From Desulfocapsa sulfexigens (GTDB lineage Bacteria; Desulfobacterota; Desulfobulbia; Desulfobulbales; Desulfocapsaceae), in the NCBI GenBank assembly GCA_020721165.1, contig DYNG01000001.1, forward strand, positions 1-27,143: a stretch of 27,143 nt of DNA, in the 5' to 3' direction. The notes below the pieces were generated by a model. The model ran no database searches. It worked only from the letters and a program-made list of their open reading frames with translations, and was not told the origin of the DNA. Shown in pieces: positions 12,614 through 18,175 of the stretch; position 1 is the stretch's first letter, and every line of letters begins with the position of its first letter. Position numbers and translations under genes: made by a program.

Positions 12614-14422
12614 TTATGCCATTCGGGTATCGTCAGGTTCTTCTTTCCTGGCAAGTTCAACAAAACCCCAATACGGGAAATCCAGGCCATATTGAGCCAC
12701 CAGGCCCGGTGGATGCTCCCGGCTCGCCACTAACCACAAGTCATTCCTCCGTTGTCGGGATAACGATTCCTCCAGGGGATCCCACTCTGGAGAAAAAACC
12801 AGGGCATTGTCGGCACTATACTCAATATCACCAGAGCCCTTAAACGAACCCATGTGGGGCCGATCCTTATACCCATCCCCACTGCCACGAGACAGCTCAG
12901 AAAGAATCAGAAAAGAGACCGCGAACTGATCCCGAATAGCCTCAAGCTGGCGCAGCCAGGAATCAATTCCCGTTCGCTGTTCACTCAAATCTTTAAACGG
13001 CAGTTTATGCAGGCTATCAATCACCACCACCGCATACTCGCTTCTAGTCTCGTGCCGGATAAAATCAATGTGCCGCCGCATGATTTCCGGGGTGAGCTGA
13101 CGATCATTGACCACCCGCAACGAACGCAGAATGTCTTGCAAGTCCTGACAGGCTTGAACAAATCTTTCCGCATTGGCGCCGGCCACCGCCTGATCCCTGA
13201 GAGCAGCGGTGGAGAGACGACTCAATCGGCTCAATGTGCGCTGATAGATCTTCTGCCGACCATTTTCAAAATCATAATAGAGAACCGGCACCTGACGACG
13301 GGCCATCTCGGTGGCGATCTGAATGGCAAAGCAGGATTTTCCGGATTTGGGCGCCCCGCCAATAATGTTAATCCCATGCACCCCATCCAGGGCCTCATCA
13401 AAACAGGAAAAGCCCGAGCGAAGAGCCCCATAGGCCTTTCCTGCCTGCATGGCAAGCTGTTCAACAAATCCCGTATATTCTCGCTGGGGAGATGCAAAAG
13501 GAGAAAAGGCCGTTGAGGCCTGAATCATGTTCAGAACCGCTGTCTTAAACTCTTTGCCCTGATCACAGGCCAGATTCCACAGGCTATAACTTTTGGCAAG
13601 ACCAGTCGGCCACCGGAATAGTCGAACCTTAAAGCCGATCCTGGCCGCCAGATTGCGAGCCGCAGCCTCCGCCTCCGCCGTGTTTTCCACCACCAAAAAA
13701 ACGGTATGAATGAAGGAAAAACGAGCGGCGTCCAGGTGCTCAAAATCATGACAATCCGGCACCGCAATCCCTGGAAAACCAAGCTGCTTGAGGGTCAGCA
13801 GATTTTCCTCGCCCTGACAGATAAACAGGGCCCCATTCTCACAGCGACCAATATCCTCAACATTAAAGATATGATACCGATCATCAAAAAATCGCTCATC
13901 TCCATGCCAGAAGAAATCTTCTGGCCGGTCAGGAAAGACACAACGAGCAGCATAACAGTTGCCATCATCCTGCACAAAAGGATAGACCAGATAACGGCCG
14001 TTATAACCAACCTGCAATTCAGCAAGAACACCAGGCCCAATCCCGGCCACCTGAAACCGGGCCAGCATCTCCCCACTTAAACGATCATGATAGGATTTGA
14101 CCTCATTGTTGATATTGGCAACCGGGAAATCAAAAGGCATCGCCCAAGACTCCCGGTCAGGATCATATCCCGGCACCGCATCGAGACCAATCCTCATTAT
14201 CTTGGCGAACCAGAGGGGAAAGCCACCCGGAACACAATGATTCAGGCATCGAAAATAACCATAAAAAAAACCCTCTGGTTGCAGATACACCACCAGACGG
14301 TCAGCAACGACCCTCCCCTGCTTATGACAGAAAGGGCAATCAGCGCTCAGATAGGTCTTTTCTTCATGAATATTGTGCAGAAAACGGCGATAAAATTGAA
14401 CTACAGCCTCGGGCTGCCTCAT
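12614..14422 (-). CDS. T7 gp4/Twinkle-like Zn-ribbon + Toprim-like + DnaB-type (SF4) helicase protein
   Basis: N-terminal CPFC..CLNHC, a Toprim-like segment (ICQGEENLLTLKQLGFPGIAV), Walker A GAPKSGKS, catalytic YDFENG, Walker B VVIDSLH, LSELSR, SGDIEYSAD. Start uncertain (14422 or 14485). Confidence 0.8.
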   Translation of the reverse strand: MRQPEAVVQFYRRFLHNIHEEKTYLSADCPFCHKQGRVVADRLVVYLQPEGFFYGYFRCLNHCVPGGFPLWFAKIMRIGLDAVPGYDPDRESWAMPFDFPVANINNEVKSYHDRLSGEMLARFQVAGIGPGVLAELQVGYNGRYLVYPFVQDDGNCYAARCVFPDRPEDFFWHGDERFFDDRYHIFNVEDIGRCENGALFICQGEENLLTLKQLGFPGIAVPDCHDFEHLDAARFSFIHTVFLVVENTAEAEAAARNLAARIGFKVRLFRWPTGLAKSYSLWNLACDQGKEFKTAVLNMIQASTAFSPFASPQREYTGFVEQLAMQAGKAYGALRSGFSCFDEALDGVHGINIIGGAPKSGKSCFAIQIATEMARRQVPVLYYDFENGRQKIYQRTLSRLSRLSTAALRDQAVAGANAERFVQACQDLQDILRSLRVVNDRQLTPEIMRRHIDFIRHETRSEYAVVVIDSLHKLPFKDLSEQRTGIDSWLRQLEAIRDQFAVSFLILSELSRGSGDGYKDRPHMGSFKGSGDIEYSADNALVFSPEWDPLEESLSRQRRNDLWLVASREHPPGLVAQYGLDFPYWGFVELARKEEPDDTRMA

Positions 14423-14520
14423 ACGAAGACCGTTGGGGGAAAAGAAAACAAGAAAAAGAACACATTGCCAACAGACAAAAAACAACTGCTGACCATATCA
14501 GGGCCTCAGCAAGAGGGAGA

Positions 14521-17500
14521 TTATGACACGATTTGCACTCCCGCAAGATCGGACTCCTGCAAGACTTGGTCAAATTGAATATGCACCGAAAACTGTACCT
14601 GCCCCACCACCTCAACCGCTACATCCGCCTGTCGGAAGAGAGCGACCACGACGCCAATCTTCCCTGCCGCCAGCAGAGGATTAACCGCGACCAACTCTGG
14701 TAACCGAACTCGGACTCGGCGCCCAAGCAGAGAGCGAAGGCTTTTATTCTGTGCCACCCGAACCAGACAACACATCCCGCCAATTGAAATATCACCATTT
14801 TCACTGAGCAGATCAAACCCGACCTCCCTGCCCTTCTCATCAATCATGGTCATGGCCAGTTGACCGCTAAAATTCCAGCGCTCCTGTTGCCGTCGCTCAA
14901 CCGCCATCATCCTTGAAGAATCACTTTCTCCATTCTGCAGACAGAATTTCTCCATTTTCGATTCCAGATCGGGATACAGGGCTTGCCATTTCCGCAAGCC
15001 CTCCCGGGACAGTACCAGAGCATCAACCATACCAACACTGGCGGCGCTTACCGTCCAGACCGAATCCTTGAAAAAGGAATCTGCTCCCACCACCCCGCCC
15101 GGCCCGATTATTTGCAAAAGGATATCGTTGCCCTGAGCATCCCGATGGAAAAGCTTCACTCGGCCTTTATTAATAAAGAATAGTTGTTGTTGCACCGCCC
15201 CCTGATTGGCCATGTTCGTATCCGGGACAAAGCTCACAAACTCCATGCTTGCATAAAGATTGTTAAACTCTTCTGTACTGAGACAATCATACACCTCCGA
15301 CCAGCTCACCCCGTGTCCATGCTCCGCCCCGGCATCCCTCTGCTCCTCTATCAACTCAGAAGCATACAGGATATCATCAATGGCCAGGGGATCAATTTCC
15401 ACCAGGCGCTGGCGCAGAATCTCCGCCTGATCCAACTGGTGAAGATAACTCAGGGTAATTATCAGATTGAGCAGCCTTTTCCGGGCCTCGACCAGTCTAT
15501 TCTGGTCCAGTAGGGAGTAAACCTCATTTTCTTCCGCCAGTTCCGTCACAGGCATATAGGCGTAAACAGGTCGTTCATGCGCCGTCGCCACCTGTTTGAG
15601 CAAGTTTTTCGCCTTTTTCTGCACTTCAGCAAGCCCTTGCTTCTGTTGCCGGCGATAACTGTCAAGCAGAGCCAGACCTTTCTGAGCTGCCTGCCAAACC
15701 GACTCCGCAATTCGTTTTGGTCTCACTTTCGCTTTCCCTGTAAATTCAAGCAGCGCCTTCTGGGCCTGCACCGAACCACTCCGACCCAGGGTTTCACACA
15801 CACTCACCAATAACTGATTTTTTATATCAGCAGAAAAATATTTCTCATCCCGCAGCAATTCCACCAGCGCCGTGACCACCTCTTCATCCACCACGGCAGC
15901 AAGAGCCTGCACCGCCTGAAATTTCAATTTTTCACTGATGCGGGGTAAGGCAGCCAGAAGCTCCTGTTTTTTCTGTCCGCCACTCAAGTTATTGACACAC
16001 AGCAAGGCCTCGCTTTGCACCCGTAAATCTTCATGACTCAGATAATCGCGGACGACACCAATATGCTCTTCACTCCCGGTAGCCGCCAACAAACGAATCA
16101 GATTTCGTTTTCCATGCCAGGGCATGGGTTTCTGCAAACGCTCCACCAGCAGGGGTGCTAACTGATCACCAACACCAGTCAGAATCTTCAACAGCCTGAT
16201 TCGCACTGACCGCTTGTCACTGGCCGAGATAGCATCCAGTAAAAAATGAATCCCCAGCGGCCCATGCAGGATAATCTTCTGGCAATACAATCCGTTAATT
16301 GGTTTTCCACAACATTGATCGAGGTAGGACTGCAACACCAAGACATCAACAGCCTGATCCTGAACCTGCCCCAATATCTTCCGCATCGCCTCTGTTTTTC
16401 CCGCAGCGCCGGAACGAATGGCATAAAAAAGGGCCAGAATTTTATCGGCGAGGATCTCATTGTTCGTGTGCTGGGCATGAGTCAAAATCCTTTGTAACAA
16501 CGACACACAACGATTCCATAGCTCATCGGCCTCTTCCGCCATTTTCAGGCAAAAAAGAAACGAGGGCGTTAATTTCTCCAACCATTCCCAATGCTGTAAA
16601 TACAGCAGCCTTTCTCCGACCAGTCCCAGAGCCTTACCGGCTTGAAGCTGCAACCCATCTTCCTCTGCCAACTTCAGCCCTTTTACCAGGGTTTGAATAA
16701 TGGCGGCGGCAACCGGCTCTTTTTTATGTTGCATCAACCGCAAAAAGGTTTCGGGAAGATGCTGGAGGACTTCCTTGTTTCTCAGGCCGTCAAGATCCCC
16801 TCGGGCAAGGGCATTCAATCCCGTATATAATCGTTTGCTCTGTCGTTGCTGCTCGGTCATGCCCATAACTTCAGCCGCATGAAATTGCCGGCCTGGCACC
16901 GTTTGCATCAATTCATGGCCGACTTCATCCACACACACCAACGATTCCTTATCGTTTTCGTTCAAGGATGACGATAAACGATCTGCTTCTTGTCGTTGAA
17001 ACTCAACCAGTGAACGGAAAACGACTTTATCACAACTCTCAATCAGTAAAGAAAAGAGTGGCAGGGTCTCCTCCTGGCAACAGAGCAGAAGCAAGGAGGA
17101 GGAGTCAAGATGCTTTGTCAACAAGTGAGCCAGCCTGCCCATGACAACCTGCCGGTCCCGCTCATCCTTCAGGGCCAGGTTGATGTTTTCGCTGAGCAAC
17201 GGCCAGTGCGAAGATGGTCCATACACCCCTTGCTGTTGCAGGGTTTGTAGAGAAAAACAGACGGCGGCCGCCAGAATATGCGCGACTTTATCCTGATCAT
17301 TGAGTGCGCGACGCATCTTCTCCCGATGGGGATCGCTCGGGTTCATCGCCAGAAAGAGCGAAAAATCATCCCTCCTCACGCCAGCGTCTGTCAGAATTTT
17401 CAGATAATCAGTGACATTATATGTAATAGTCGGCAGTTCCGATAAGTTTTTTTCCCGGTCACTCATAAATACTGCCGCCAGATCGGCAGACCGGACAAAG

Positions 17501-17886
17501 GCCTCATGTCCACCCGCCTTGGCAATTTGCTCGGGGTTGGCGGTAAAAAAACTCAAAATCTGCTTAAACCGCTTGCGATCAATCCCCTGCCCCAGAATCA
17601 TCACCTCAAATCCGGCCTTATTCAGCATGTCCACCATGGAAAGGCTATTCAATTGCTCACGACCATTCCGGTCAAAAATGACCCCATCCAAAGCAGGCAC
17701 TCCTTGTTCCAAGCTCAAGGAGAGGTGTTTGTATAAACGAATAAACTGTTTGAGATCAGAGTAGGCTGTTTCTATGGTATTTCCCACCTGCACACTTTGC
17801 TCAGGATAGAGGCGAAGAGTGGTGATCGCCTTGTTCATACCTTTCAAAACATCTAACGCATGCTGTTGTTGCTCACTGCTCGCCAT
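14521..17886 (-). CDS. Large multidomain protein: helical/HEAT-like repeats, cNMP-binding-like domain, PilZ-like C-terminus
   Basis: HEAT-like PWHGKRNLIRLLA..LSHEDLRVQSEALLCV..FQAVQALA, a CAP-like beta-roll (NQGAVQQQLFFINKGRVKL..GPGGVVG), and PilZ motifs RQQER and DISIGG. Confidence 0.8.
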   Translation of the reverse strand: MASSEQQQHALDVLKGMNKAITTLRLYPEQSVQVGNTIETAYSDLKQFIRLYKHLSLSLEQGVPALDGVIFDRNGREQLNSLSMVDMLNKAGFEVMILGQGIDRKRFKQILSFFTANPEQIAKAGGHEAFVRSADLAAVFMSDREKNLSELPTITYNVTDYLKILTDAGVRRDDFSLFLAMNPSDPHREKMRRALNDQDKVAHILAAAVCFSLQTLQQQGVYGPSSHWPLLSENINLALKDERDRQVVMGRLAHLLTKHLDSSSLLLLCCQEETLPLFSLLIESCDKVVFRSLVEFQRQEADRLSSSLNENDKESLVCVDEVGHELMQTVPGRQFHAAEVMGMTEQQRQSKRLYTGLNALARGDLDGLRNKEVLQHLPETFLRLMQHKKEPVAAAIIQTLVKGLKLAEEDGLQLQAGKALGLVGERLLYLQHWEWLEKLTPSFLFCLKMAEEADELWNRCVSLLQRILTHAQHTNNEILADKILALFYAIRSGAAGKTEAMRKILGQVQDQAVDVLVLQSYLDQCCGKPINGLYCQKIILHGPLGIHFLLDAISASDKRSVRIRLLKILTGVGDQLAPLLVERLQKPMPWHGKRNLIRLLAATGSEEHIGVVRDYLSHEDLRVQSEALLCVNNLSGGQKKQELLAALPRISEKLKFQAVQALAAVVDEEVVTALVELLRDEKYFSADIKNQLLVSVCETLGRSGSVQAQKALLEFTGKAKVRPKRIAESVWQAAQKGLALLDSYRRQQKQGLAEVQKKAKNLLKQVATAHERPVYAYMPVTELAEENEVYSLLDQNRLVEARKRLLNLIITLSYLHQLDQAEILRQRLVEIDPLAIDDILYASELIEEQRDAGAEHGHGVSWSEVYDCLSTEEFNNLYASMEFVSFVPDTNMANQGAVQQQLFFINKGRVKLFHRDAQGNDILLQIIGPGGVVGADSFFKDSVWTVSAASVGMVDALVLSREGLRKWQALYPDLESKMEKFCLQNGESDSSRMMAVERRQQERWNFSGQLAMTMIDEKGREVGFDLLSENGDISIGGMCCLVRVAQNKSLRSLLGRRVRVRLPELVAVNPLLAAGKIGVVVALFRQADVAVEVVGQVQFSVHIQFDQVLQESDLAGVQIVS

Positions 17887-18175
17887 AACCAACACCCTGT
17901 TTACTGCCTAACATGCAGTAAAATTTCCGATTTTAAAAAAAATAACAATGATGGTTTCGCAAAGAATCCTTCAACAGACTTTTTCTCAAATTCTACTCTT
18001 GCAATCTCAACAGGTTAAAAGTTGGATTTTTGTTTCTCTGCTTTCCTGAACCACTATCAACGATGAGCAAAAAACAAAAAATCAACATGTCCCTACCCAC
18101 ACAAGACATTATTTTCTATGGCCTATCACAAAAAAACCATAAAAGTCAAGGATCATGAAAGATATTGCGTGGATA

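What the first reader, a model, noticed from the sequence alone, without database searches (positions are those of the whole stretch)
12614..14422. Chromosomal Twinkle-like primase-helicase with an apparently dead primase domain
The order Zn-binding motif, Toprim, SF4 helicase is that of phage T7 gp4 and mitochondrial Twinkle, yet no phage or integrase genes flank it. The Toprim acidic residues look lost: the usual EGExD reads QGEEN (13802-13816), and the DxD position reads VVENT. The helicase keeps Walker A/B and the catalytic Glu but has SELSR for SQLSR and ASRE for the K-x-R finger. Established: animal Twinkle lost primase activity but kept helicase function. Inference: a domesticated phage-type helicase with a new role, such as repair, strand annealing or accessory replication.
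Basis: partly seen in the sequence, partly recalled or inferred. Interest (0 to 1): 0.66.

Follow-up and report, generated by a model that had tools for sequence, protein, structure and literature searches.

The report
Chromosomal primase-dead ring helicase gene
Sulfur bacteria of the order Desulfobulbales keep, as an ordinary chromosomal gene, a mobile-element-type primase-helicase whose motor looks intact but whose primase metal site is gone, a bacterial parallel to the animal mitochondrial helicase Twinkle; its cellular job is unknown.

Summary
Window 12614-14422 (-) encodes a 602-aa protein with a Cys4 zinc ribbon, a DnaG-type RNA-polymerase domain (basic subdomain plus Toprim fold) and a DnaB-type (SF4) ATPase. 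Only DnaB_C is seen by Pfam. The primase half is shown by intermediate relatives, by a profile match to solved primases and by two AlphaFold models.

In 46 orthologues every Toprim metal ligand is lost or variable, and so is the motif II Arg. The zinc cysteines, the basic/aromatic DNA-binding tract and all helicase catalytic residues are kept. The dead half is under almost the same purifying selection as the motor (dN/dS 0.11 against 0.09).

The family forms one clade nested among intact Toprim-helicase fusions, one of which lies in a recombinase-bearing mobile element. Relatives of its N-terminal half were confirmed in 391 stretches of a one-genome-per-species collection. The gene is single-copy, sits in a fixed place (SDR-Maf-[HEAT/cNMP protein]-gene) and coexists with canonical DnaB, DnaG, RadA, PriA and DciA.

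The function is inferred, not shown. This scan had already found the family on other genomes, with the same conclusion. I found no paper describing it.

The parts
12614..14422 (-). Whole gene, 602 aa plus stop (P0001): a primase-dead primase-helicase fusion
   Evidence: ORF and translation. Orthologues are 50-81% identical over the full length. dN/dS is about 0.1.
14198..14422 (-). Zinc-binding domain, residues 1-75. The ligands are C29, C32, C59 and C63 (14234-14338).
   Evidence: C29, C59 and C63 are each conserved in 46/46 orthologues and C32 in 45/46. Intact relatives have the CHC2 DnaG type here. The fold matches the Aquifex DnaG ZBD+RPD structure 2AU3.
13838..14110 (-). N-terminal basic subdomain of the RNA-polymerase domain, residues 105-195. 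The motif II Arg is replaced (A126). The basic/aromatic tract is kept (R143, Y144, F149, Y157, R160, R166, F171, W172).
   Evidence: The profile alignment to T7 gp4 maps A126 to R84, Y144 to Y106, F149 to Y111, R160 to K122 and R166 to K128.
13523..13837 (-). Toprim-fold domain without metal ligands, residues 196-300
   Evidence: AlphaFold pLDDT is above 90 here. Foldseek matches 1NUI (rmsd 2.8 A over 190 columns) and the DnaG cores. dN/dS is 0.11.
13802..13816 (-). Motif IV, QGEEN in place of EGExD (T7 E157-D161)
13679..13693 (-). Motif V, VVENT in place of hhDxD (T7 D207/D209)
   Evidence: None of the 46 orthologues keeps an intact DxD.
13571..13588 (-). Motif VI region, YSLWNL in place of D-x-x-D (T7 D237 region)
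   Evidence: The orthologues have N/S/T and Q here; the intact relatives have D and D.
13418..13522 (-). Linker helices, residues 301-335 (the oligomerisation linker in gp4 and DnaB)
   Evidence: VIA alignments to DnaB and G40P start at model residues 307-312, which is the linker helix of those chains.
12647..13417 (-). DnaB-type SF4 ATPase/helicase domain, residues 336-592. It contains Walker A 13334-13357, the H1a Glu 13259-13279, Walker B 13010-13030, H3 SELSR 12887-12904, H4 12809-12844 and VASRE 12716-12730.
   Evidence: Pfam DnaB_C scores 84.9 bits. VIA Z is about 30 to G40P and DnaB. K362, E386, D469, K528 and R568 are conserved in 46/46 orthologues.
14521..17895 (-). Upstream, co-directional 1124-aa HEAT-repeat / cNMP-binding-domain protein with a sub-threshold PilZ-like C-terminus. 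It is a frequent operon partner.
   Evidence: Pfam hits. It lies directly upstream in 61 of 80 related loci, and its reading frame overlaps that of the helicase gene in at least two genomes. The 98-nt gap in the window has no terminator-like site.

Best explanation
The gene is a domesticated descendant of a mobile-element DnaG-primase/DnaB-helicase fusion. Shown by sequence, fold and comparative evidence: it keeps the zinc ribbon, the primase fold and its basic/aromatic DNA-binding tract, and a complete SF4 motor. It has lost the Toprim metal ligands and the motif II Arg, so it very probably cannot make primers. It is vertically inherited and under strong purifying selection over its whole length, and it sits beside a full canonical replication and repair set. 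Inferred: it forms a ring through its linker helix and works as an accessory 5'-3' ssDNA translocase/helicase. The dead primase module would serve as a DNA-recognition and loading clamp, as the N-terminal domains of Twinkle and T7 gp4 do. In the two families where it follows the HEAT/cNMP/PilZ-like protein it is probably co-transcribed with that protein and may be controlled by it.
For: Architecture and fold. The full model has pLDDT 88. The best Foldseek matches are T7 gp4 (5IKN and 1Q57, about 496 columns, E 2.6e-19), with Twinkle at rank 12. VIA aligns model residues 101-594 to gp4 residues 64-549 at Z 25.6, and the motor to G40P/DnaB at Z about 30. A model of the N-terminal half built from orthologues alone (pLDDT 87.8) gives 38 matches at E <= 0.001, and all 38 are DnaG-type primases.

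Homology chain. Relatives that are 30-33% identical over residues 104-591 carry Zn_ribbon_DnaG + Toprim_2 + DnaB_C. A profile that includes them hits 2AU3 at 1.4e-14 and 1NUI at 5.6e-11.

Dead site. Among 46 orthologues the EGExD Asp is N/T/S in 45, no DxD is intact, motif VI is lost, and the motif II Arg is A/S/G in 38.

Kept functions. The zinc cysteines are present in 45-46 of 46. R160 (T7 K122), R166 (T7 K128) and Y149 (T7 Y111) are kept in at least 43 of 46. Walker A Lys, the catalytic Glu, the Walker B Asp, K528 and R568 are kept in 46/46.

Selection. dN/dS is 0.11 for the Toprim domain, 0.11-0.12 for the ZBD and basic subdomain, and 0.09 for the helicase, over 18 independent pairs.

Origin. 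The orthologues form one clade (SH-aLRT 100) nested among intact fusions. The intact relative P0141 lies between serine recombinases, an MCM and a PolA.

Chromosomal fixation. The gene is a single copy in about 49 of 121 genomes of the order, and relatives were confirmed in 391 stretches of the one-genome-per-species collection. Synteny with SDR and Maf is fixed. Neighbours are housekeeping genes.

Accessory status. DnaB, DnaG, RadA, PriA and DciA are all present in five complete carrier genomes.

Precedent. The Twinkle N-terminal domain is needed for ssDNA binding and helicase activity (PMC2241861). T7 primase-domain residues are needed for loading the hexamer (PMC9198812).
Against: There is no biochemical or expression evidence; no RNA run could be listed. 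Two acidic residues stay conserved near the former site (E205 in 46/46, E250 in 45/46), so some metal or ligand binding cannot be excluded, and I had no model coordinates to inspect the pocket. The motor carries E instead of the DnaB Gln (SELSR) and Lys instead of the Arg finger. These are shared with intact relatives, but none of those has been assayed. The HEAT partner is absent in many carriers: about 12 of the 80 loci have Maf directly upstream of the helicase gene, and no adjacent HEAT gene was found in the four loci read from families f5, f7, f16 and one f17 genome. The link to that protein is therefore not obligatory. Ring formation and polarity are inferred from family membership only.
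Confidence: 0.6

Rival explanations
1. The primase is still active and uses a rebuilt, non-canonical metal site (E205, E250 and, in this genus, E206/E246), so the protein is a true bifunctional primase-helicase.
For: E205 and E250 are conserved in 46/46 and 45/46 orthologues. The zinc ribbon and the template-binding tract, which a primase needs, are retained.
Against: All three canonical ligand clusters and the motif II Arg are replaced by non-acidic, often variable residues (S/N/T/V/A) in 46 orthologues, while the nearest relatives keep them. The same pattern in Twinkle goes with loss of primase activity. E250 lies one position off any conserved acidic column.
Confidence: 0.07
2. The protein is not a DNA helicase in vivo. 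It is a RecA-fold NTPase switch or scaffold (KaiC- or RadA-like) in a second-messenger pathway, together with the HEAT/cNMP/PilZ-like protein.
For: The HEAT/cNMP gene lies directly upstream in 61 of 80 loci, with overlapping frames in some. Source annotations vary (KaiC/GvpD/RAD55, FlaH). The H3 Gln is replaced by Glu and the Arg finger by Lys.
Against: DnaB_C scores 84.9 bits against 14.9 for the KaiC-type ATPase family. The DNA-binding tract and zinc ribbon of the primase half are conserved. Many carriers lack the HEAT partner and one genome has the partner without the helicase. The partner's PilZ match is below threshold (E 0.005, 17.5 bits against a cut-off of 22.5).
Confidence: 0.13
3. 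It is an anti-mobile-element device: a primase-dead subunit that co-assembles with, or competes against, the related primase-helicases of invading elements, or that senses their DNA.
For: The nearest relatives are mobile-element replication proteins. The same MAG holds a T7-like phage contig with a real gp4-like gene.
Against: There is no significant PADLOC match (best is mads_8 at 4.4e-05, over the P-loop only). The gene is single-copy, sits in a fixed syntenic place and evolves slowly (dN/dS about 0.1), with none of the turnover typical of defence islands. It is only 14% identical in alignment to the co-binned phage's gp4-like protein, with one marginal BLASTP match.
Confidence: 0.08
4. It is a remnant gene of a cryptic prophage or integrated element, not domesticated.
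For: PHROG 239 (primase/helicase) matches at 1.9e-19. A language-model look-alike search puts the N-terminal half next to phage Toprim clusters.
Against: No phage or integrase gene lies within 27 kb. The position between Maf and housekeeping genes is the same across dozens of species. Purifying selection acts on every domain. Composition is unremarkable: the two 1-kb bins covering the gene have GC 0.49 and 0.52, against 0.43-0.55 across the window.
Confidence: 0.02

Closest known systems
Bacteriophage T7 gene 4 primase-helicase (gp4; PDB 1NUI, 1Q57, 5IKN, 6N9V)
   Same: It has the same three-part order: zinc ribbon, RNA-polymerase domain with Toprim fold, linker, SF4 motor. It is the best whole-chain fold match. 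The basic/aromatic tract is equivalent to T7 Y106, Y111, K122 and K128.
   Different: The equivalents of T7 R84, D161, D207, D209 and D237 are lost, and that of E157 is variable. The motor is closer to DnaB/G40P. There is no conserved acidic C-terminal tail. The gene is chromosomal, not phage-borne, and in the tree it lies far from a T7-like gp4.
Metazoan mitochondrial helicase Twinkle (PDB 7T8C, 8E2L)
   Same: It is also a gp4-type fusion in which the primase motifs are kept except the Mg-binding residues, alongside a working helicase. Its N-terminal domain is still needed for ssDNA binding (PMC2241861).
   Different: Twinkle has lost the zinc finger, whereas here all four Cys are conserved. 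Twinkle is the sole replicative helicase of its genome, whereas here a canonical DnaB and DnaG coexist. The loss is independent and bacterial.
Mobile-element Zn_ribbon_DnaG + Toprim_2 + DnaB_C fusions (for example P0135, P0139, P0141, P0146; PHROG 239)
   Same: These are the nearest sequence relatives: 30-33% identity over both the primase and helicase halves, with the same SELxR, FKxSGDIEY and A/S-x-R motifs.
   Different: They keep EGExD, DxD, motif VI and the motif II Arg, and they have a CHC2 rather than a Cys4 ribbon. The one whose context I read lies in a recombinase/MCM/PolA element.
Replicative helicase DnaB and phage SPP1 G40P (PDB 4ESV, 3BGW)
   Same: The C-terminal RecA-fold domain and linker helix match at Z 28-30, and the Pfam DnaB_C score is above threshold.
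   Different: There is no DnaB N-terminal collar domain. It scores 75 bits against the 385-bit cut-off of the DnaB equivalog. The real DnaB is elsewhere in the genome.

Membership tests
DnaG-type (Toprim) primase, catalytically competent | N-terminal zinc ribbon | tested here: met
   C29 and C32, then C59 and C63, are conserved in 45-46 of 46 orthologues. The fold matches the 2AU3 ZBD+RPD structure.
DnaG-type (Toprim) primase, catalytically competent | RNA-polymerase domain fold (basic subdomain plus Toprim) | tested here: met
   For the N-terminal model, all 38 Foldseek hits at E <= 0.001 are DnaG, gp4, gp61 or Twinkle primase domains.
DnaG-type (Toprim) primase, catalytically competent | Toprim acidic ligands (Glu and Asp of EGExD, DxD, motif VI Asp) and the motif II Arg | tested here: not met
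   The window reads Q..N, E-N-T and S..N, with A126 at the Arg position. None of the 46 orthologues has an intact DxD.
SF4 / DnaB-family hexameric helicase | DnaB_C domain with Walker A Lys, catalytic Glu (H1a), Walker B Asp and H3/H4 motifs | tested here: met
   Pfam DnaB_C scores 84.9 bits against a cut-off of 27. K362, E386 and D469 are conserved in 46/46. H3 has Glu where DnaB has Gln, and H4 has Lys where DnaB has its Arg finger.
SF4 / DnaB-family hexameric helicase | Ring assembly and 5'-3' unwinding | not testable with these tools
   A linker helix is present and aligns with that of DnaB/G40P. No oligomer model or assay was available.
Cellular replicative DnaB (TIGR00665 equivalog) | Score above the curated cut-off, and the DnaB N-terminal domain | tested here: not met
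   It scores 75 bits against a cut-off of 385.25 and has no PF00772 match. The true DnaB is on contig C62 at 596 bits.
T7 gp4 / Twinkle clade (as a lineage, not as an architecture) | Groups with gp4-type sequences rather than with other DnaB_C proteins | tested here: inconclusive
   PHROG 239 matches at 1.9e-19. However, phmmer against PDB finds DnaB chains and not gp4 or Twinkle, and in the tree the family is separated from a T7-like gp4 by long branches. No Twinkle sequence was available for the tree.
Prophage- or mobile-element-borne replication module | Flanked by integrase, recombinase, phage or plasmid genes, with patchy, non-syntenic distribution | tested here: not met
   Neighbours are housekeeping genes in the window and in 10 other genomes. 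The SDR-Maf-(HEAT)-gene order is fixed across the 80 loci.

The most novel reading that the evidence does not exclude
The primase-dead helicase and the large HEAT/cNMP-binding/PilZ-like protein encoded just upstream form a second-messenger-gated DNA motor. Nucleotide-signal binding to the scaffold would load or release a ring helicase that recognises specific ssDNA through its retained zinc ribbon. This would link c-di-GMP or cNMP signalling directly to replication restart, recombination or chromosome handling in Desulfobulbales.
Probability: 0.15. Interest if true: 0.8.

Novelty: new variant of a known kind. Interest (0 to 1): 0.55.

Why it matters
Loss of primase chemistry with retention of the primase fold is known from animal Twinkle. 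There it raised the still-debated question of what a dead primase domain does for a ring helicase. Here the same outcome arose independently in bacteria. It is found in hundreds of species, with cultured carriers available (Desulfocapsa sulfexigens DSM 10523, Desulfofustis glycolicus DSM 9705, Desulfoprunum benzoelyticum DSM 28570). It also has natural controls: close relatives that still have the metal site.

The dead half is as constrained as the motor (dN/dS 0.11 against 0.09), and it keeps the zinc ribbon and the DNA-binding tract. That makes the 'loading and recognition clamp' idea directly testable in a simple system. The frequent operon with a putative nucleotide-signal receptor hints at a regulated DNA motor of a kind not described in the papers I could search.

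It is also a clean case of a mobile-element replication gene turned into a host gene. It is a caution for annotation too: public records call it 'replicative DNA helicase', 'KaiC/RAD55-like ATPase' or 'FlaH'.

Tried and rejected
- Pfam on the protein and on its N-terminal pieces finds no Toprim or zinc-ribbon family. An HMM built from orthologue N-termini alone finds no primase in the PDB. Direct sequence evidence for the primase half therefore fails, and the link rests on intermediate relatives and on fold.
- PADLOC gives no convincing defence family.
- Pairwise BLASTP to the co-binned T7-like gp4 is marginal: 3e-4 in H4, and 1.1 in Toprim.
- I looked for displacement of a standard gene. DnaB, DnaG, RadA, PriA and DciA are all present in five complete carrier genomes, so none has been replaced.
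- I looked for a second conserved partner in families without the HEAT gene. The neighbours are unrelated housekeeping genes: Rho, FKBP, an AIR-synthase-like protein, a PEP-utilising enzyme, cardiolipin synthase, UvrB.
- I looked for a conserved regulatory motif in the HEAT-helicase spacer. Only the Shine-Dalgarno motif and the ATG are conserved, and there is no terminator.
- I looked for transcription evidence. Only DNA metagenomes (cave, biofilm, soil) hold the sequence, and no RNA run was listed.
- An Atlas look-alike search of the HEAT protein gave only generic HEAT-repeat clusters.
Full report
**1. The gene**

The minus-strand ORF 12614..14485 contains an ATG at 14422 that gives a 602-aa protein, P0001. 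This ATG is invariant in an alignment of ten sequences, and eight of the nine relatives carry a GGAG or AGAG Shine-Dalgarno-like motif 8-9 nt upstream of it. In the window that motif is degenerate. Local composition is unremarkable.

**2. What plain family searches see**

- Pfam reports only DnaB_C (residues 334-542, 84.9 bits) plus generic P-loop families.
- NCBIfam DnaB-type models score about 75 bits, far below their cut-offs.
- phmmer against PDB sequences finds DnaB and G40P chains only.
- The N-terminal 330 residues have no Pfam family.
- PHROG 239 ('DNA primase/helicase') covers residues 124-555 at 1.9e-19.
- PADLOC gives nothing convincing.

**3. The primase half is real but has diverged beyond direct sequence recognition**

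An exhaustive phmmer search found full-length orthologues. Next came proteins 30-33% identical over residues about 104-591 (P0135, P0136, P0139, P0141, P0146; E 1e-63 to 1e-44). These carry Zn_ribbon_DnaG, Toprim_2 and DnaB_C.

A profile of N-terminal halves that includes them matches Aquifex DnaG (2AU3, 1.4e-14), the T7 gp4 primase fragment (1NUI, 5.6e-11) and E. coli DnaG (about 4e-9). A profile of orthologues alone matches no primase.

Fold evidence closes the gap:

- The full AlphaFold model (pLDDT 88) is best matched by T7 gp4 over about 496 columns (E 2.6e-19), with human Twinkle at rank 12.
- VIA aligns residues 101-594 to gp4 residues 64-549 (Z 25.6). It aligns the motor alone to G40P and DnaB at Z 28-30.
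- A model of residues 1-330 built from orthologues only (pLDDT 87.8) gives 38 significant Foldseek hits. All are DnaG-type primase domains: 2AU3, Twinkle, 1NUI (rmsd 2.8 A over 190 columns), T4 gp61 and the DnaG cores.
- A language-model look-alike search agrees.

**4. The catalytic centre is gone and the rest is kept**

The profile alignment to 1NUI fixes the register. Q203, G204, E205, E206 and N207 correspond to T7 E157-D161. E246 and T248 correspond to D207 and D209. A126 corresponds to R84, which PMC9198812 places 3.3 A from the Mg ion.

Counts among 46 orthologues, against the 8 more distant relatives in the alignment (seven of which keep the acidic residues):

| Position | 46 orthologues | More distant relatives (8 rows) |
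|---|---|---|
| First Glu of EGExD | E 32, Q 10, V 4 | E 7 of 8 |
| Asp of EGExD | N 32, T 10, S 3, D 1 | D 8 of 8 |
| First Asp of DxD | E 14, S 10, V 9, others | D 7 of 8 |
| Second Asp of DxD | S 20, N 18, T 7, D 1 | D 7 of 8 |
| Motif VI aspartates | N/S/T (D in 5 of 46) and Q | D |
| Motif II Arg | A 29, S 5, G 4 | R 6 of 8 |

By contrast, the following are kept:

- The zinc cysteines, in 45-46 of 46. The intact relatives have a CHC2 ribbon here.
- The tract equivalent to T7 Y106, Y111, K122 and K128: Y144 in 44, Y/F149 in 46, R160 in 43, and R/K166 in 43.
- New family-specific invariants: W172, N247, E250, Q283.
- In the motor, K362, E386, D469, K528 and R568, each in 46/46.

SELSR, the Lys at the DnaB Arg-finger position and 'ASR' are shared with the intact relatives. 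They do not signal decay.

**5. The dead half is not decaying**

Mean pairwise identity among orthologues is 55-59% in the three primase subdomains against 69% in the motor. Over 18 independent species pairs (dS 0.13-0.76), dN/dS is 0.12 for the ZBD, 0.11 for the basic subdomain, 0.11 for the Toprim domain and 0.09 for the helicase.

**6. Origin and distribution**

In a maximum-likelihood tree the orthologues form one clade (SH-aLRT 100). The clade sits in a polytomy with intact Toprim fusions. It is far from the genome's own DnaB and from a T7-like gp4. The loss of the metal site therefore dates to the base of the clade.

The intact relative P0141 is encoded between two serine recombinases, an MCM-type helicase, an HTH repressor and a family-A polymerase. 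That is a mobile element.

- In 121 genomes of the window's order, about 49 carry one full-length copy (E below 1e-100, 50-74% identity, or split across contig ends). This includes 12 of 13 genomes in its own family.
- In 301 genomes across the phylum, only 11 have a match. Four of these lie outside the order.
- A scan of one genome per species confirmed 391 stretches encoding a relative of the N-terminal half. The 80 best include Desulfocapsa, Desulfofustis glycolicus DSM 9705 and Desulfoprunum benzoelyticum DSM 28570. Desulfocapsa sulfexigens DSM 10523 carries P0038.

**7. Context**

The whole window is made of housekeeping genes: pilC-type T2SS-F, hemA, cytochrome c assembly, siroheme synthase, a redoxin, SurA, RecO, a lipoate/biotin ligase, a cytochrome c, Maf, an SDR, DUF362, a histidine kinase and a radical-SAM protein. 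There is no phage or integrase gene.

Across the 80 best related loci:

- The order is SDR-Maf-[HEAT/cNMP protein]-helicase, with the 1100-aa HEAT protein directly upstream, in 61.
- The HEAT gene is upstream but separated from the helicase gene by 1-2 kb in about 6.
- Maf is directly upstream, with no HEAT gene, in about 12.

The reading frames of the HEAT gene and the helicase gene overlap in at least two genomes. In the window a 98-nt T-rich spacer without a terminator separates them.

In the order-wide sample the adjacency is confined to two families. One genome has the HEAT protein without the helicase. In other families the neighbours are unrelated housekeeping genes. The partner's cNMP-binding and HEAT domains are significant. 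Its PilZ match is below threshold (E 0.005).

**8. Accessory status**

The window's MAG is 64% complete. It has a canonical DnaB (596 bits), but no DnaG was found in it. Five complete carrier genomes each have DnaG, DnaB, RadA, PriA and DciA above the curated cut-offs. The gene is therefore an addition, not a replacement.

**9. Mechanism**

Shown by sequence, fold and comparative evidence:

- an intact-looking SF4 motor with its linker helix;
- a primase module stripped of its metal ligands but retaining the zinc ribbon and the nucleic-acid-binding tract;
- strong constraint on all parts.

Inferred:

- a ring translocase of 5'-3' polarity, as in the family;
- an N-terminal module that recognises or clamps ssDNA and helps loading.

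The precedents are human Twinkle, which has no primase activity but whose N-terminal domain is required for ssDNA binding and full helicase activity (PMC2241861), and T7 gp4, in which primase-domain residues are essential for loading the hexamer (PMC9198812). The cellular process and any control by the HEAT/cNMP protein are unknown.

**10. Comparison and novelty**

In architecture and in the pattern of loss, this is a bacterial counterpart of metazoan Twinkle. It differs in four ways. It keeps the zinc ribbon. Its motor is nearer to DnaB. It coexists with the canonical replisome. It has a frequent signalling-type operon partner.

Membership as a catalytically competent DnaG-type primase fails on the defining acidic residues. 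Membership of SF4/DnaB_C is met. Membership of the gp4/Twinkle lineage is inconclusive.

Five literature searches found no description of this family.

Earlier windows of this scan had already reported the same family in other genomes, with the same reading. I reached my reading before consulting them. Here I add the residue-level mapping of the retained DNA-binding tract and the lost motif II Arg, the per-domain dN/dS, and the test for gene displacement.

Noticed in passing
window 14500-15750 (3' third of the HEAT/cNMP/PilZ-like gene): A second public assembly of nearly the same strain (DYNZ01000077.1, locus L030) differs from the window by 0-3 bases per 250 nt over 7.4-14.5 kb. The difference jumps to 30-48 per 250 nt exactly across 14500-15750. 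That stretch encodes the sensor (cNMP-binding and PilZ-like) end of the neighbour gene, and the divergence has a sharp edge at the gene's stop codon. It could be a recombination tract or allele swap in the sensor domains, or a mixed-strain assembly artefact.
   Followed up: partly
L030 (DYNZ01000077.1): The contig that carries a copy of this gene whose N-terminal 330 residues are 100% identical is filed as 'Leptospira biflexa' MAG. Its gene content and all its relatives are Desulfocapsaceae/Desulfobulbaceae, so the record's taxonomic label looks wrong.
   Followed up: no
L003 (G000 contig C82), 655-2259 and 2358-3725: The same MAG bin holds a short T7-like phage contig. It has a genuine gp4-like primase-helicase (EGELD and DND motifs intact) followed by a family-A DNA polymerase. 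It is either a phage of this host or a binning passenger.
   Followed up: partly
window 14521-17895 (-): This 1124-aa protein has HEAT repeats (residues about 580-650), a cNMP-binding domain (888-969) and a C-terminal stretch that matches PilZ only below threshold (E 0.005, 17.5 bits against a cut-off of 22.5). Shorter paralogues of about 350 aa and about 800 aa, covering the C-terminal part, are scattered through the order.
   Followed up: partly
P0264 and P0231: At least one other, unrelated branch of Toprim-helicase fusions also has a degenerate DxD: P0264 reads LEQSD and has no Toprim Pfam hit. Loss of primase chemistry in such fusions may therefore have happened more than once in bacteria.
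   Followed up: no
window 14423-14440: The Shine-Dalgarno motif (GGAG or AGAG, 8-9 nt before the ATG) found in eight of the nine relatives aligned is degenerate in the window (ACGG). This suggests weak or coupled translation initiation in this strain.
   Followed up: no
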